Source: an uncultured virus (IMG/VR IMGVR_UViG_3300046331_000190) (Duplodnaviria > Heunggongvirae > Uroviricota > Caudoviricetes). Taken from it: a DNA stretch of 63,156 nt. The notes below the pieces were generated by a model. The model did no database searches, had not been told where the DNA came from, and saw only the letters and a list, made by a program, of their open reading frames with translations. The translations under genes were made by a program, and so were the position numbers. Shown here piece by piece: positions 48,318 to 61,006 of this stretch (the stretch's first letter is position 1; each line of letters starts with the position of its first letter). Where the stretch lies: IMG/VR virus record IMGVR_UViG_3300046331_000190; one strand, written 5' to 3'.

Positions 48318-49011
48318 ATGCAGTTAGTGAGTGTTTGAATGGTTCCCAAGGCAACTCCTGCACAATGGTTAACATTTGATTAGCTATATCTCTTATCTCA
48401 ACTTGTGCATGCTCGTCGTTTCTAAGCTTCTGAAATAACATAAAGCTTCTAAAGTTAAACATAACGTCAGCAGTAATCTGAGAGTTATATCCTTTGAAAA
48501 ATCTTGCAGATTCTTTTGCCCGTTTTCTTCCAAGTATAGGTGTTAAATCTTCTAAACAGTTGTGATACAAATAGTTACCTATCTCTGAGTAGTCTTGTAA
48601 TACACTAGCCCAAGTAGTTCCTTGTTTCCAAGATAACTCTCCGCCTTCATCATTGCCATTTGAATCTTCATCATGGATAAACAAAGGCTTTGAAAGTTTG
48701 ATATCAGCCCAGTCTTCTGGTACAAATATCTTATCTTCTTTTAGTTCTTTGTATCGAGCAGATTCCCCATTAACAGCAACACCAATACGGTGTTTAAGAA
48801 TGTGTATATGTGAGGCAATATCTGATGTAACCAGAAAGTGAAGGGATGATTTTTCAAACGGTGTGTGATGCCCTTCTTTTGCCAGCATATTAAGTAATGC
48901 AGGCATTCGATCTTTCTTTTCTTCAAAGTCTCTTGAAGTTGAGGTCCAAGCTGATAACGCATGCGTTTGATCGCCTCCATAAAATCCTATAAGTTCTACT
49001 GTATTATCCAT
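48295..49011 (-). CDS. thyX: FAD-dependent thymidylate synthase
   Basis: GHHTPFE, KHRIGVAVNGESARY (RHR..S.RY motif), KESAR, NFRS, HAQVEIR. Confidence 0.9.
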   Translation of the reverse strand: MDNTVELIGFYGGDQTHALSAWTSTSRDFEEKKDRMPALLNMLAKEGHHTPFEKSSLHFLVTSDIASHIHILKHRIGVAVNGESARYKELKEDKIFVPEDWADIKLSKPLFIHDEDSNGNDEGGELSWKQGTTWASVLQDYSEIGNYLYHNCLEDLTPILGRKRAKESARFFKGYNSQITADVMFNFRSFMLFQKLRNDEHAQVEIRDIANQMLTIVQELPWEPFKHSLTAFGYAKED

Positions 49012-49255
49012 TTGTTACTGGGGTCCAATCGTCTGCTAACATATCCGTTTGTGATGCCAACCAAGGTACTCTTGATTTTGGTGCGTCTGGATTTGTTGTA
49101 TCCAAACCTGTTGTATCAATGTAGATATACGGGGATGTCATCTTCGACTCCGCAGTTGGTAGTTGTAACTTAATAAAGATACCCTTACCATTCCATCCAG
49201 CTCTGGCCATCTTGTGACCATACTTTAGTTGCTCTAACGCTTCTCCAAATGTCAT
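49004..49255 (-). CDS. DUF2829 / Tad2-like anti-defence nucleotide sponge
   Basis: MTFGEALEQLK.G.KMARAGWNGKG.F..PWLASQTDMLADDW family signature. Confidence 0.85.
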   Translation of the reverse strand: MTFGEALEQLKYGHKMARAGWNGKGIFIKLQLPTAESKMTSPYIYIDTTGLDTTNPDAPKSRVPWLASQTDMLADDWTPVTNG

Positions 49256-49272: not shown

Positions 49273-49557
49273 TTAGTACTGTAAAGTTAAAGTTTTAACT
49301 ACCATCATCTGTGCAGCAAGGATATCCATTAATGCACGTTTGGTCAAATCTTCTTTTAGAGAAGTTAATGTACCGTGTCGGTAGCTATCTAACTGCGAGT
49401 TATAAATTAAGTCTGCTAACTCAGCGCAAAGAGCTTTTGCTTTTGCAACCTTGTCATCACCTGATGGATTAAATGTTTTACCAACTAGTTTTTCTCCATG
49501 AGTTAATTCTGTTGGATGGGGAGTTGCTTCAAGATCAGTGTAGGTTTCTTGTGTCAT
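49273..49557 (-). CDS. Acb2/Tad1-like helical-hairpin protein (candidate anti-CBASS/anti-Thoeris sponge)
   Basis: GEKLVG.TFNPSGDDKVAKAK..CAELADLI..RA...I..AQMMVVK; the C-terminal A.M..VK helix resembles the Acb2 family. Confidence 0.6.
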   Translation of the reverse strand: MTQETYTDLEATPHPTELTHGEKLVGKTFNPSGDDKVAKAKALCAELADLIYNSQLDSYRHGTLTSLKEDLTKRALMDILAAQMMVVKTLTLQY

Positions 49558-49610
49558 TTTGGTTTGGTTTATACTATTATCAAAACTTGCAGTTTTTACA
49601 AGTTTTGCTG

Positions 49611-49752
49611 CTGTAGTGGAAGGATTCGAACCTCCAAGTGGACTTTAGCTATAGGACATTGCGCGCTTGTGGTCAACCCATTACCCTACGTTTATCAGTA
49701 GCTCCACACCCCCGAGACAGGAGGGCACGTCTGCCAATTTCATCACACTACA
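49611..49752 (-). tRNA. tRNA-Asp(GUC)-like gene with a 73-nt variable arm
   Basis: Acceptor TGTAGTG/CACTACA; D-arm ATG-AAATTGGCAGA-CGT; anticodon arm CCCTC-CTGTCTC-GGGGG; T-arm GGAGG-TTCGAAT-CCTTC; discriminator G; insert at 49636-49708. Confidence 0.75.
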
Positions 49753-49775
49753 GTATGTTATGCAAGATAAAACAA

Positions 49776-50288
49776 TTATCCGTCATACGCAAGATTCTGG
49801 CCCCCGCGTACAGAACTCTGCTGTTCTTCTTGTAAATCTCTATAAGTTGACTTAAAGCTTTGTCTGATTTGGTCAAACTTTGCAGCAGCATTTATCACAG
49901 CAGTAATGTTACCATCTCTACCATGCTCAATATCTGTCACCTCCATGTATTTTGCCAATCGATCAAGCATTGACTTCATACCCATATAGGCTCTAAAAGT
50001 TGGCGTCTGATACATTTGCTCACATCTTTTCTTTGCGTGCAGTATCATGTCATCATCAAGAGAAAAATCAGCTCCAACCTCTTTTAAGATCATTGCTTCT
50101 TTGTCCTTTTCTGGAACATCAAAGAACGGATTAAGATCTGGATTAGGACAAGTTGAGTAAAACAAATATGTATAGATCTTTATTGCTTCATCCCCATACT
50201 CATCCATGATGTTCTTCAAGAACTCAAGTGTGTAACAATGCTCGGAAGGGATTACCTTACCGTTCTGTACATCAAATAATCTGACCAT
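49776..50288 (-). CDS. Conserved hypothetical protein
   Basis: 170-aa helical ORF ending in VRGG; possibly small-terminase-like, unverified. Confidence 0.55.
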   Translation of the reverse strand: MVRLFDVQNGKVIPSEHCYTLEFLKNIMDEYGDEAIKIYTYLFYSTCPNPDLNPFFDVPEKDKEAMILKEVGADFSLDDDMILHAKKRCEQMYQTPTFRAYMGMKSMLDRLAKYMEVTDIEHGRDGNITAVINAAAKFDQIRQSFKSTYRDLQEEQQSSVRGGQNLAYDG

Positions 50289-60258: not shown

Positions 60259-60345
60259 GAGAAGGTAGTATAGGGCATTACGAGTAACTACTGAACGAGA
60301 AATGATGTAGTATACTAGACATGGGTTCGATTCCCATACTTCTTG
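60259..60345 (+). ncRNA. tRNA-like RNA lacking a D-arm (GAC + T-arm as in the tmRNA tRNA-like domain)
   Basis: T-arm ATGGG-TTCGATT-CCCAT; acceptor GAGAAG/CTTCTT; helix TAGTATA/TATACTA. Confidence 0.5.
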
Positions 60346-60931: not shown

Positions 60932-61005
60932 GGACTTGTAGCTCATTTGGTTAGAGCAACTGACTCATAATCAGTAGGTAATAGGTTCGATCCCTATCTG
61001 GTCCA
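60932..61005 (+). tRNA. tRNA with CAT anticodon (Ile2- or elongator Met-type); no encoded CCA
   Basis: GGACTTG..CTGGTCCA; GCTC-ATTTGGTTA-GAGC; ACTGA-CTCATAA-TCAGT; ATAGG-TTCGATC-CCTAT. Confidence 0.9.
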
Positions 61006-61006
61006 C

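What the first reader, a model, noticed from the sequence alone, without database searches (positions are those of the whole stretch)
49611..49752. tRNA-Asp with a giant 73-nt variable arm inside an anti-defence block
Seen: an intact cloverleaf with GUC anticodon, C38 and G73, but with U37, a 3-bp D-stem with a Leu-like D-loop, and a 73-nt insert. The insert folds as a long bulged hairpin (GTGGA/TCCAC, GCTA/TAGC, TAGGGTA/TGTCCTA). Known: GUC, C38 and G73 are AspRS identity elements; tRNA-Asp normally has a 4-5-nt variable loop, and class II arms are about 10-24 nt. The insert is too short for a group I intron and is not in the anticodon loop. It lies alone, immediately upstream of the Acb2- and Tad2-like genes. 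Inference: a chargeable tRNA scaffold displaying an RNA domain, a nuclease decoy, or a non-canonical intron.
Basis: partly seen in the sequence, partly recalled or inferred. Interest (0 to 1): 0.8.

Follow-up and report, generated by a model that had tools for sequence, protein, structure and literature searches.

The report
Giant-armed aspartate tRNA look-alike, host-derived
This phage carries a working copy of a previously undescribed tRNA-shaped RNA of Bacteroidota bacteria, which bears aspartate-loading marks and a conserved 70-base extra arm, travels in the bacteria with an asparagine-type regulator gene, and probably carries an amino acid without reading codons.

Summary
Window 49752..49611 (minus strand) encodes a 142-nt cloverleaf with a GUC loop and a 70-nt arm. 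ARAGORN and Rfam miss it.

It is not a decaying insertion or an intron:
- At least 119 viral contigs and 60 Bacteroidota genome loci carry the family.
- All helices covary, the arm's included (97.4% of cells paired, 28 of 34 pairs compensatory).
- Contigs from RNA libraries run from the anticodon stem into the arm. No spliced joint was seen.

Invariant positions are the five aspartate identity marks (G73, G34, U35, C36, C38) plus G2-C71. The first pair is U1-A72, the pair that lets bacterial GatCAB amidate tRNA-bound Asp. U37 is invariant, and C33 replaces U33 in 25 of 59 phage copies.

In a sample of 151 Bacteroidota genomes, 16 have the RNA. All 16 have an AsnC-like regulator, which is divergent and adjacent in 11, and all 16 have GatB.

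Phage copies sit in tRNA arrays and carry a covarying palindrome in the arm tip, which suggests dimers.

Best reading (about 0.35): a non-decoding carrier that AspRS charges and GatCAB may amidate, taken over by phages.

The scan had noted other giant-armed phage tRNA mimics on other DNA.

The parts
49611..49752 (-). Whole tRNA-shaped RNA, 142 nt. RNA position n = window 49753-n.
   Evidence: Model R1 scores 157.9 bits and is the only hit in the window.
49746..49752 (-). Acceptor stem 5' strand (U1 G2 U3 A4 G5 U6 G7). U1-A72 and G2-C71 are near-invariant in the family.
   Evidence: U1-A72 in 58 of 59, G2-C71 in 57 of 59; both in 69 of 69 bacterial copies.
49611..49618 (-). Acceptor stem 3' strand (49612-49618) and discriminator G73 (49611). 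No encoded CCA; C follows.
   Evidence: G73 in 58 of 59; 69 of 69 end in CAG.
49727..49743 (-). D arm: 3-bp stem and an 11-nt class II, tRNA-Leu-like loop with G18 G19.
   Evidence: 2 of 3 pairs covary. T4 tRNA-Leu is the best non-family match to R1.
49709..49725 (-). Anticodon arm. Loop CUGUCUC at 49714-49720, GUC at 49716-49718, U37 at 49715, C38 at 49714.
   Evidence: G34, U35, C36 in 59 of 59; U37 in 58 of 59; C38 in 56 of 59; position 33 is U 33, C 25, A 1.
49638..49707 (-). Extra arm, 70 nt: P1 (49704-49707 with 49638-49641), 4-nt bulge, P2 (49697-49699 with 49642-49644), conserved internal loop GAUAAA / CUAA (49691-49696 and 49645-49648), P3 (49684-49690 with 49649-49656, one bulged A), apex.
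   Evidence: P1 3 of 4, P2 3 of 3, P3 7 of 7 pairs with compensatory changes.
49669..49674 (-). Invariant apex motif GACCAC, within GGGUUGACCAC. It contains GAC, the complement of the GUC loop.
   Evidence: a search that put no constraint on the arm gave 65 of 65 distinct sequences with GACCAC (45 UUGACCAC, 19 GUAGACCAC, 1 AAUGACCAC).
49661..49666 (-). Self-complementary GCGCGC in the apical loop (context AAGCGCGCAA). Candidate kissing or dimerisation site, typical of phage copies.
   Evidence: palindrome >=6 nt in 97 of 109 phage copies, with 27 different palindromes; no more frequent in bacterial copies than in the shuffles of phage copies.
49619..49635 (-). T arm GGAGG-UUCGAAU-CCUUC.
   Evidence: 3 of 5 pairs covary. 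The loop was part of the search patterns, so its invariance is not a finding.
49581..49607 (-). 11-bp A/U-rich hairpin just 3' of the RNA. Possible terminator or processing signal, shared only with the closest relatives.
   Evidence: -11.7 kcal/mol, z = -3.67. Not called by the terminator scan.
49004..49255 (-). Neighbouring gene, Tad2-like. Context only, not part of the RNA system.
   Evidence: PF11195, 85.4 bits.

Best explanation
SHOWN. Window 49752..49611 encodes a member of a conserved, structured, expressed RNA family. The family is a chromosomal gene of Bacteroidota (Dyadobacter, Aquirufa, Chitinophaga, Flammeovirga, Saprospiraceae and others). Many of their phages have copied it into their tRNA arrays. 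It is a complete class II-type cloverleaf plus a 70-100 nt covarying arm.

INFERRED mechanism. The cell handles it as a tRNA, with RNase P-type end processing and CCA addition. AspRS loads it with aspartate, because it keeps all five strong aspartate determinants and G2-C71. Its U1-A72 pair replaces the G1-C72 of real bacterial tRNA-Asp. That makes the bound Asp a substrate for the GatCAB amidotransferase, so the RNA would carry Asp that is converted to Asn. The giant arm and the invariant U37 (plus C33 in many phage copies) keep it out of decoding, so Asn is not put at Asp codons. In the bacteria an AsnC-type regulator, encoded divergently next to the RNA gene, would set its level according to amino-acid supply. 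The phage copy escapes that control: it has its own context in a late operon or tRNA array. It has also gained a self-complementary apical loop that should pair two molecules head to head. That symmetry would suit the two-fold symmetric AspRS dimer. The benefit to the phage, whether asparagine supply or capture of AspRS/GatCAB, is not known.
For: Family and structure
- 12 exact-tail loci, 50 loci, 114 and at least 119 viral contigs.
- 60 of 80 fetched genome loci score 93-147 bits with R1, and all 60 are Bacteroidota by record title.
- Phage set: 97.4% of cells paired, 28 of 34 pairs compensatory. Bacterial set: 97.4%, 23 of 34.

Identity marks
- G73, G34, U35, C36, C38, G2-C71 and U1-A72 as counted.
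- These are the aspartate determinants listed in PMC9976931 (passage read).
- U1-A72 promotes amidation by bacterial AdT, while G1-C72 prevents it (PMC1635274, abstract read).

Signs that it does not decode
- U37 in 58 of 59 phage copies and 69 of 69 bacterial copies; C33 in 25 of 59 phage copies.
- One phage array (L021) also holds a canonical tRNA-Asp with G1-C72, U33 and A37.

Regulator link
- An AsnC-like gene lies next to the RNA, divergent, in 29 of 60 loci. Its best NCBIfam match is AsnC itself (157 bits, against 56 for Lrp).
- In 151 sampled Bacteroidota genomes, the RNA is in 16 and the regulator ortholog (>=53% identity) is in 17. Those 17 are the 16 RNA genomes plus one. The two genes are adjacent in 11 of 16.

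Pathway
- GatB is in 16 of 16 RNA genomes.
- AsnRS is in 5 of 5 and GlnRS in 4 of 5 tested RNA genomes. This is the AsnRS+GlnRS+GatCAB combination that PMC4206432 links to Asn synthesis on tRNA (passage read).

Expression and retention of the arm
- All 4 RNA libraries laid, from 4 studies, hold family-specific contigs.
- These run from the anticodon stem into arms of several variants.
- One exact 116-nt contig spans 49617-49732.
- No joints were reported.

Dimer idea
- A perfect palindrome >=10 nt follows GACCAC in 64 of 109 phage copies, against 2.3% of shuffles and 2 of 62 bacterial copies. There are 27 distinct palindromes.
Against: - No charging, amidation or dimer was measured. The whole mechanism is inference from identity marks and gene neighbourhood.
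- The RNA does not replace asparagine synthetases. Asn_synthase-domain genes occur in most RNA-bearing genomes: at least 13 of 16 at E<=1e-70. AsnA is rare in the phylum whether or not the RNA is present (4 of 151). So there is no complementary distribution.
- GatB is in 126 of 151 genomes, so its presence in 16 of 16 discriminates little.
- Bacterial copies keep U33 in 64 of 69, so decoding by them is not excluded.
- The RNA-regulator co-occurrence may partly reflect shared ancestry. The taxonomy of the sampled genomes was not shown.
- The D loop is Leu-like. Whether it carries the D-loop antideterminant for GatCAB could not be judged.
- The RNA-library evidence comes from assembled contigs. 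These cannot show strand, ends or level, and may include DNA carry-over.
- 12 of 109 phage copies have a palindrome of only 4 nt or none.
Confidence: 0.35

Rival explanations
1. It is a real, decoding tRNA-Asp isoacceptor. Its odd loop (U37, Y33) and bulky arm make it resistant to a host tRNA-cutting defence, so GAY codons can still be read when host tRNA-Asp is destroyed.
For: - The GUC anticodon, C38 and G73 are invariant.
- The frame is a canonical cloverleaf, called tRNA-Asp once the arm is removed.
- The RNA sits in phage tRNA arrays: 26 of 31 loci have tRNA genes within 1.5 kb.
- Bacterial copies keep U33 in 64 of 69.
- tRNA-cutting defences and phage tRNA countermeasures are established (passages of PMC12916289 and its references 50 and 59).
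- Engineered tRNAs tagged with a small hairpin aptamer are reported translationally active (PMC7590224, start of abstract only).
Against: - C33 or A33 in 26 of 59 phage copies, and a pyrimidine at position 37 in all but one.
- U1-A72 instead of the G1-C72 said to be strictly conserved in bacterial tRNA-Asp (PMC9976931).
- A canonical tRNA-Asp coexists in one array.
- This reading does not explain the chromosomal copies with their own AsnC-like regulator.
- It does not explain the invariant loops of the arm.
Confidence: 0.2
2. It is a decoy or sponge. It binds AspRS, GatCAB or an anticodon nuclease that recognises the tRNA-Asp loop, without itself being used. The phage version is made bivalent by dimerisation.
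For: - The invariant GUCUC loop and the tRNA shape.
- The palindromic loop is specific to phage copies.
- Family-specific words reach very high word depth in RNA-library contigs: up to 20,400, against 150 and 70 for flanking contigs in the same run. This is only a weak hint, because the values come from contigs.
- In this window the RNA lies beside a Tad2-like anti-defence gene.
Against: - A nuclease decoy would have no need for invariant G73, G2-C71 and U1-A72 at the acceptor end.
- Host chromosomes encode the RNA under their own regulator, which does not suit a purely anti-defence tool.
- The anti-defence neighbourhood is not conserved in relatives.
Confidence: 0.2
3. It is a regulatory RNA rather than a carrier. 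It would be either a partner of the AsnC-like protein or a T-box-like sensor whose invariant GAC in the arm tip pairs with a GUC anticodon, its own or that of host tRNA-Asp.
For: - The RNA and the regulator co-occur tightly even when unlinked: 16 RNA genomes against 17 regulator genomes of 151.
- GACCAC in the arm tip and GUC in the loop are both invariant and complementary over 3-4 bases.
- T-box specifier-anticodon pairing is an established precedent (PMC12990946, passage read).
Against: - Both partners are invariant, so no covariation can support the pairing.
- I know of no Lrp/AsnC protein that binds RNA (recalled, not searched).
- This reading does not explain the acceptor-end identity marks.
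Confidence: 0.1
4. The 70-nt insert is an intron, or a decaying insertion in a dead tRNA gene.
For: With the arm removed the remainder is called tRNA-Asp. ARAGORN and Rfam do not call the intact gene.
Against: - All arm helices covary in two independent sets.
- The arm's loops are invariant.
- 70 nt is too short for a group I or group II intron, and there is no bulge-helix-bulge layout.
- RNA-library contigs continue from the anticodon stem into the arm, with no skipping joint.
- The family is kept in at least 119 viral contigs and 60 bacterial loci.
Confidence: 0.03

Closest known systems
Class II bacterial tRNAs, especially tRNA-Leu (within Rfam RF00005)
   Same: 7-bp acceptor stem, 3-bp D stem with the AAUUGG(U/C)AGA-type D loop, 5-bp anticodon stem with a 7-nt loop, canonical T arm, and an extra arm leaving between positions 45 and 48. 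T4 tRNA-Leu is the best non-family hit of model R1 (45.6 bits).
   Different: The arm is 70-100 nt, with three helices, a conserved internal loop and a branched tip, instead of one hairpin of about 10-24 nt. The RNA has an Asp anticodon, G73, U1-A72 and U37. The tRNA model and ARAGORN do not detect it.
tRNA-Asn as cofactor of tRNA-dependent asparagine synthesis (ND-AspRS + GatCAB, the transamidosome)
   Same: G73, G34 and U35, together with the U1-A72 pair that bacterial GatCAB needs (PMC1635274 abstract). The host genomes hold GatB (16 of 16) together with AsnRS and GlnRS, as in the bacteria discussed in PMC4206432.
   Different: C36 (the Asp type), so even a discriminating AspRS should accept it. 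It also has a giant arm, U37 and its own AsnC-like regulator. No evidence that it decodes. Charging and amidation are untested.
Phage T4 species 1 RNA (rnaC), the stable RNA of the T4 tRNA cluster
   Same: About 140 nt, encoded in a phage tRNA cluster. It has a tRNA-like T arm and acceptor stem at its 3' end (my reading). Its function is listed only as 'small, stable RNA'.
   Different: Not homologous: 18 bits to R1, from the T arm alone. No Asp-type anticodon loop and no comparable arm.
GOLLD and ROOL RNAs of phage and prophage tRNA arrays
   Same: Structured non-coding RNAs placed in tRNA arrays that self-assemble through kissing loops (PMC12990946, passages read).
   Different: Those are 550-830 nt, form cages of 6-14 copies and are not tRNA-shaped. 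Here the RNA is a 142-nt cloverleaf with one self-complementary loop, which suggests a dimer.
Engineered aptamer-tagged tRNAs (PMC7590224; listing and start of abstract only)
   Same: [quoted passage not shown]
   Different: Synthetic, small hairpins, translationally active by design. The natural RNA has a far larger arm and marks that argue against decoding.
HIV-1 dimerisation initiation site loop (recalled, not from a tool)
   Same: A 6-nt GC-rich palindrome flanked by A residues in a loop. The window reads AAGCGCGCAA.
   Different: Unrelated molecule. The resemblance is a lead for the dimer idea only.

Membership tests
Canonical elongator tRNA-Asp (RF00005) | Cloverleaf with acceptor, D, anticodon and T arms | tested here: met
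   all four arms pair and covary. ARAGORN calls tRNA-Asp(gtc) once the arm is removed.
Canonical elongator tRNA-Asp (RF00005) | Recognised by tRNA gene models on the native sequence | tested here: not met
   ARAGORN (also 0 of 31 and 0 of 38 related loci). Rfam at gathering score and at E<=10.
Canonical elongator tRNA-Asp (RF00005) | Variable region of 4-5 nt (class I), or one hairpin up to about 24 nt (class II) | tested here: not met
   70 nt in the window; family members are 109-171 nt overall.
Canonical elongator tRNA-Asp (RF00005) | Aspartate identity set G73, G34, U35, C36, C38 (PMC9976931) | tested here: met
   58, 59, 59, 59 and 56 of 59; 69 of 69 bacterial copies have G73, GUC and C38.
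Canonical elongator tRNA-Asp (RF00005) | G1-C72, strictly conserved in bacterial tRNA-Asp (PMC9976931) | tested here: not met
   U1-A72 in 58 of 59 phage copies and 69 of 69 bacterial copies.
Canonical elongator tRNA-Asp (RF00005) | U33 and a purine at position 37 in the anticodon loop | tested here: not met
   The window has U33, but 26 of 59 phage copies have C or A at 33. U37 is in 58 of 59 and 69 of 69.
Canonical elongator tRNA-Asp (RF00005) | Aminoacylation, EF-Tu binding and decoding | not testable with these tools
   Needs biochemistry.
Substrate or cofactor of bacterial GatCAB (tRNA-Asn-like) | U1-A72 base pair | tested here: met
   The rule is from the PMC1635274 abstract.
Substrate or cofactor of bacterial GatCAB (tRNA-Asn-like) | No supernumerary D-loop nucleotide (U20A antideterminant) | tested here: inconclusive
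   The D loop is of the class II type, and some copies carry 10-30 nt hairpin inserts. It cannot be mapped onto the tRNA-Asp numbering.
Substrate or cofactor of bacterial GatCAB (tRNA-Asn-like) | GatCAB encoded by the organisms that carry the RNA | tested here: met
   GatB in 16 of 16 RNA-bearing genomes, but also in 110 of the other 135.
Substrate or cofactor of bacterial GatCAB (tRNA-Asn-like) | Asp on the RNA is amidated to Asn | not testable with these tools
   Needs an enzyme assay.
tRNA intron (group I, group II or bulge-helix-bulge) | Intron core or BHB motif, and a spliced RNA product | tested here: not met
   70 nt; no Rfam intron hit. Helix layout is P1, 4-nt bulge, P2, internal loop. 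No joint in 4 RNA libraries, and the arm is contiguous with the anticodon stem (contigs only).
Kissing-loop or palindrome-mediated RNA homodimers | Exposed self-complementary sequence maintained through sequence change | tested here: met
   >=6 nt in 97 of 109 phage copies, 27 distinct palindromes; shuffles give 32%.
Kissing-loop or palindrome-mediated RNA homodimers | Physical dimer | not testable with these tools
   Needs native gel, SEC-MALS or cryo-EM.
Known tRNA-like RNAs in Rfam (tmRNA, YrlA/Y RNA and others) | Match to the family model | tested here: not met
   No family at E<=10 on 49300-50100 except a chance snoRNA hit outside the element.

The most novel reading that the evidence does not exclude
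Bacteroidota possess a dedicated, translation-insulated RNA cofactor. It is a tRNA-shaped scaffold that AspRS loads with aspartate and GatCAB converts to asparagine, kept off the ribosome by a giant arm and U37, and switched by its own AsnC-type regulator. Phages have stolen it, freed it from that control and turned it into a symmetric dimer that fits the dimeric synthetase. This would be an amino-acid biosynthetic or carrier RNA separate from the decoding tRNA pool, a kind of molecule not described before.
Probability: 0.3. Interest if true: 0.95.

Novelty: new variant of a known kind. Interest (0 to 1): 0.85.

Why it matters
The family is unannotated: ARAGORN and Rfam 15 miss it. Five full-text searches found no description. 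It nevertheless occurs in about one in ten sampled Bacteroidota genomes and in well over a hundred phage contigs, and it appears in freshwater RNA libraries.

It is a natural tRNA frame displaying a large folded domain. It combines the aspartate synthetase code with the single base pair that licenses amidation by GatCAB, and it has a dedicated AsnC-like regulator.

That makes an open question directly testable: what is GatCAB for in bacteria that already have AsnRS and GlnRS, and can tRNA-shaped RNAs serve as amino-acid carriers outside translation?

The phage copies add a second question: why do phages carry a dimer-prone version in their tRNA arrays?

The family also gives a clean covariation-based structure for cryo-EM and a natural template for tRNA-scaffold engineering.

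Tried and rejected
- **Known phage genomes.** blastn of 49560-49800 against 50,697 records found no match.
- **Own assembly.** Not held. I used the near-identical record G001 instead.
- **Single-sequence folding.** Not more stable than shuffles (z = 0.2), so the case rests on covariation.
Rejected.
- **Hairpin U73-A85 / G74-C84 / G76-C82 in the arm tip.** The 73-85 pair is U-A or G-C in most members, but A-A, A-C, U-C or U-U in others (read). G76 becomes A in 6 of 59. Left unpaired.
- **D-loop AGAC pairing with GUCU of the anticodon loop.** Rejected. D-loop variants GGCAAAC and GGCAGCC keep GUCU unchanged.
- **csRNA DNAVirus_1850 of PMC10690425.** It overlaps a tRNA-Asp call but is 66 nt and marine, so not this family. 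Supplement files 1, 2 and 4 of that paper could not be searched and may hold this family under another name.
- **T4 rnaC as a homologue.** Rejected (18 bits).
- **Long-armed 88-nt tRNA-Asn and tRNA-Thr in the same phage arrays.** Not related to this family.
- **'The RNA replaces asparagine synthetase'.** No complementary distribution with AsnA or Asn_synthase.
- **Asn_synthase genes in large RNA-carrying phage records.** Over the cut-off in 1 of 5, uninformative.
- **More distant paralogs of the regulator (39-47% identity).** They sit in other contexts (HemD / Zn-peptidase). Two are divergent from asparagine synthase B genes, in G120 and G112. This is suggestive only.
- **RNA libraries.** The stretch 49636-49683 has little or no cover, and the flanks are covered only by diverged relatives. 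Because these are contigs, I draw nothing from those gaps.
- **Sigma-70 promoter and terminator scan.** Nothing useful found. Bacteroidota promoters are not covered by that tool.
Full report
**1. What is in the window**

The element lies on the minus strand. The RNA runs from 49752 (U1) to 49611 (G73) and is 142 nt long. Read by eye it has:
- a 7-bp acceptor stem
- U8 and G9
- a 3-bp D stem with an 11-nt loop of the tRNA-Leu type
- a 5-bp anticodon stem with loop CUGUCUC
- a 70-nt insert (RNA 46-115)
- a canonical T arm
- G73 followed by C, with no encoded CCA

ARAGORN finds only a tRNA-Met elsewhere in the window. Rfam finds that tRNA and one weak tRNA at 60259-60345. Even at E<=10 nothing in Rfam 15 matches the element. 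With the arm removed in a script, ARAGORN calls the rest tRNA-Asp(gtc). The single-sequence fold energy is ordinary (z = 0.2).

**2. The element is a family, and its structure covaries**

Four pattern scans of IMG/VR retrieved relatives:
- An exact search for the last 25 nt found 12 contigs whose flanks differ.
- A gapped motif search found 50.
- A search that left the anticodon free found 114.

I aligned 31 distinct members with MAFFT. I left out L050, whose 5' half is replaced, and two copies cut by contig ends.

My 34-pair structure gives 97.4% of cells paired and 28 of 34 pairs with changes on both sides. 0 of 500 shuffles reach this, and slid controls give 44-56% paired.

The arm consists of:
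- P1: 4 bp, 3 pairs covary
- a 4-nt bulge
- P2: 3 bp, all covary
- an internal loop with near-invariant (G/A)AUA(A/G)A opposite (C/U)(U/G)AA
- P3: 7 bp with one bulge, all covary
- a tip holding the motif GACCAC

A covariance model (R1) separates the family (99.7-168 bits) from ordinary tRNAs (49.5 bits or less) in 81 sources.

**3. What is invariant**

Counts in 59 distinct sequences retrieved without any anticodon constraint:

| Position | Count |
|---|---|
| U1-A72 | 58 of 59 |
| G2-C71 | 57 of 59 |
| G73 | 58 of 59 |
| G34, U35, C36 | 59 of 59 each |
| U37 | 58 of 59 |
| C38 | 56 of 59 |
| Position 33 | U 33, C 25, A 1 |

The T loop, the GACCAC motif and the D-loop motif were each fixed by one or another of the search patterns. 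I therefore checked GACCAC with a search that did not require it: 65 of 65 distinct sequences have it.

G73, G34, U35, C36 and C38 are the five strong aspartate determinants. G2-C71 is a minor one. G1-C72 is described as strictly conserved in bacterial tRNA-Asp (PMC9976931, passage read). Here that pair is U-A. According to the abstract of PMC1635274, U1-A72 promotes amidation of tRNA-bound Asp by the bacterial amidotransferase, and G1-C72 prevents it.

**4. Context in phages**

The window is the late operon of a distant crAss-like phage:
- The large terminase is about 25% identical to crAss-like terminases.
- PHROGs identify portal, major head protein, terminase, PhoH, ThyX and tail fibres.

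The RNA lies between a 170-aa ORF and a 94-aa ORF, both without family matches. A Tad2-like gene follows (PF11195).

In relatives, 26 of 31 loci have tRNA genes within 1.5 kb, on the same strand as the RNA where I checked. ARAGORN never calls the RNA itself. One array (L021) also contains a canonical tRNA-Asp with G1-C72, U33 and A37. The anti-defence neighbourhood is therefore local to this phage.

**5. Expression**

18 freshwater DNA runs and 5 freshwater RNA runs hold words of the stretch. I laid four RNA runs from four studies.
- All four have short contigs on 49703/49707-49742. This is the D loop plus anticodon arm, a part specific to the family.
- Where those contigs branch, at the start of the arm, the loose ends read as arms of other family variants.
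- One exact 116-nt contig (depth 2) spans 49617-49732, covering part of the D loop, the anticodon arm, the arm and the T arm.
- No joint skipping the arm was reported.

Word depth on the conserved part is very high: up to 20,400 in one run, against 150 and 70 for flanking contigs. These are contigs, so strand, ends and level are not established and DNA carry-over is possible. I take this as support for a retained arm and for expression of the family, not as proof.

**6. The RNA is a Bacteroidota gene**

A motif scan of one genome per species gave at least 120 matches. R1 confirmed 77 copies in 60 of the 80 fetched loci. All 60 are Bacteroidota by record title:
- eleven Dyadobacter genomes
- four Aquirufa
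- Chitinophaga, Arachidicoccus, Ravibacter, Runella
- Flammeovirga pacifica, with five tandem copies
- many Saprospiraceae, with 2-3 copies

The 20 matches in other phyla fail the model. The structure covaries again: 97.4% paired, 23 of 34 pairs compensatory, on a model-fitted alignment.

The bacterial copies stand alone, with no tRNA gene within 1.5 kb in the 20 loci checked. The Bacteroidota promoter motif TAnnTTTG occurs upstream in 33 of 73 distinct upstream regions, most often about 43 nt before the mature 5' end.

The 5' 45 nt of the window's RNA differ from the Aquirufa copies at one position (read). This fits a freshwater Cytophagales host.

**7. The AsnC-like partner**

- Pfam shows an Lrp/AsnC-family regulator divergent from the RNA in 7 of 7 Dyadobacter, Aquirufa and Chitinophaga loci examined.
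- An HMM built from these finds the regulator next to the RNA in 29 of the 60 loci and in none of the phage loci L002-L063.
- Its best NCBIfam match is AsnC itself: 157 bits, below the equivalog cut-off of 227, with Lrp at 56 bits.

In an even sample of 151 Bacteroidota genomes:
- The RNA is present in 16. Fourteen are strong. G064 and G048 are weaker, and both also have a copy beside the regulator gene that is cut by the end of the fetched stretch.
- The regulator ortholog (>=53% identity) is present in 17: those 16 plus G022.
- The two genes are adjacent and divergent in 11 of 16.

In E. coli, asnC is divergent from asnA and activates it in response to asparagine (recalled).

**8. Testing the asparagine idea**

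For the idea:
- GatB is in 16 of 16 RNA genomes. G022, the one genome with the regulator but no RNA, lacks GatB.
- AsnRS is in 5 of 5 and GlnRS in 4 of 5 tested RNA genomes. This is the AsnRS+GlnRS+GatCAB combination that PMC4206432 reports in 68 of 547 genera and links to asparagine synthesis on tRNA. That paper lists Bacteroidetes among the 18 genera that also lack an asparagine synthetase.

Against or neutral:
- GatB is in 126 of 151 genomes overall.
- AsnA is rare everywhere (4 of 151; 0 of 5).
- Asn_synthase-domain genes are present in most RNA genomes, although absent from the Chitinophaga and Arachidicoccus genomes tested.

So the RNA does not simply replace an asparagine synthetase. 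The idea survived one test that could have refuted it (GatB) but is not proven.

**9. Phage-specific changes**

- **Palindrome.** The 24 nt after GACCAC hold a perfect palindrome in most phage copies. Bacterial copies resemble the shuffles. The table counts the longest palindrome:

| Longest palindrome | Phage copies (of 109) | Shuffles | Bacterial copies (of 62) |
|---|---|---|---|
| >=6 nt | 97 | 32% | 25 |
| >=8 nt | 80 | 9% | 9 |
| >=10 nt | 64 | 2.3% | 2 |

  There are 27 different palindromes, among them GCGCGC, GCAUGC, GCUAGC, UGUACA, GCUUGCAAGC and GCCGGCCGGC.
- **Control within the same molecules.** D-loop insert hairpins in the same molecules mostly lack self-complementary loops (read). 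The palindromy is therefore selected and specific to the arm tip. The simplest reading is symmetric RNA-RNA pairing.
- **C33.** It is mainly a phage trait: 25 of 59 phage copies against 5 of 69 bacterial copies. Two of those five sit in loci that carry phage-type palindromes.

**10. Conclusion**

Shown:
- a new, structured, expressed tRNA-shaped RNA family of Bacteroidota and their phages
- the aspartate identity set combined with U1-A72
- a conserved giant arm
- a co-inherited AsnC-like regulator

Inferred: AspRS charges it with Asp, GatCAB may amidate the Asp, it does not decode, and phage copies dimerise.

Not found in print. Searches and Rfam gave nothing. The catalogue of PMC10690425 could be searched only in part.

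Earlier notes of this scan describe other giant-armed phage tRNA mimics on other DNA. None mentions this family's bacterial copies or the regulator.

Noticed in passing
window 60259-60345 (+): A second odd tRNA. Rfam tRNA scores 36.3 bits on an 87-nt stretch with 22 nt where the 5 central loop positions should be. ARAGORN does not call it. A normal tRNA-Met lies at 60932-61006.
   Followed up: partly
L132:390-527(-), L125:390-525(-), L083:535-696(-): Other tRNA-shaped RNAs in phage contigs with a Leu-like D arm and A73. L132 and L125 share the UUGACCAC motif but lack a normal anticodon arm (36-44 bits to R1). L083 has neither the motif nor the arm (25 bits). Possibly sister families.
   Followed up: no
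window 49736, 49741, 49742 (RNA positions 17, 12, 11): In RNA runs X19 and X20, Illumina adapter sequence directly follows these positions in several contigs. Many cDNA fragments therefore end in the D arm. This could be a reverse-transcriptase stop at a modified base or a frequent fragment end.
   Followed up: no
L360:1490-2432 (Flammeovirga pacifica): Five tandem copies of the RNA with a 197-nt period. Saprospiraceae loci hold 2-3 copies, including short 109-121 nt versions that keep P1, P2 and the internal loop but lose the tip (L319:1347-1455, L358:1682-1795, L305:1050-1170).
   Followed up: partly
L356:1588-2388(+), L376:605-1342(-) (Chitinophaga): A TrmB-type tRNA (guanine-N7) methyltransferase gene (PF02390) lies directly downstream of the RNA, on the same strand, in both Chitinophaga genomes.
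   Followed up: no
L003:1749-2105: ARAGORN calls a phage-encoded tmRNA next to the tRNA array that holds the RNA.
   Followed up: no
L044:258-345, L056:717-804 and 810-897: 88-nt tRNA-Asn(GTT) and tRNA-Thr genes with long variable arms in the same phage arrays. They are not related to this family (G1-C72, different D arm).
   Followed up: partly
L021, L023, L025, L054, L059 (T stem): 5 of 31 family members have one extra U bulged in the 5' strand of the T stem (GAG-U-GG, ACA-U-GG, GGA-U-GG).
   Followed up: no
L050:1490-1629(-): A family member whose 3' two-thirds match L016 but whose 5' acceptor and D region are replaced by unrelated sequence. Likely a recombination scar or a dead copy.
   Followed up: no
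L178:2909-3047 (T4 rnaC): The 3' ~90 nt of T4 species 1 RNA can be drawn as a tRNA-like domain: a 7-bp acceptor stem, a canonical T arm, a roughly 20-nt extra hairpin, and no proper anticodon stem.
   Followed up: partly
G022 (L425): The one sampled genome that has the AsnC-like ortholog (59% identity) but no RNA hit. It is also one of the 25 genomes without GatB.
   Followed up: partly
many phage and some bacterial copies, D loop (e.g. L188, L036, L064): Hairpin inserts of 10-30 nt between A15 and G18 of the D loop. One (L014) is capped by a GAAA tetraloop.
   Followed up: no
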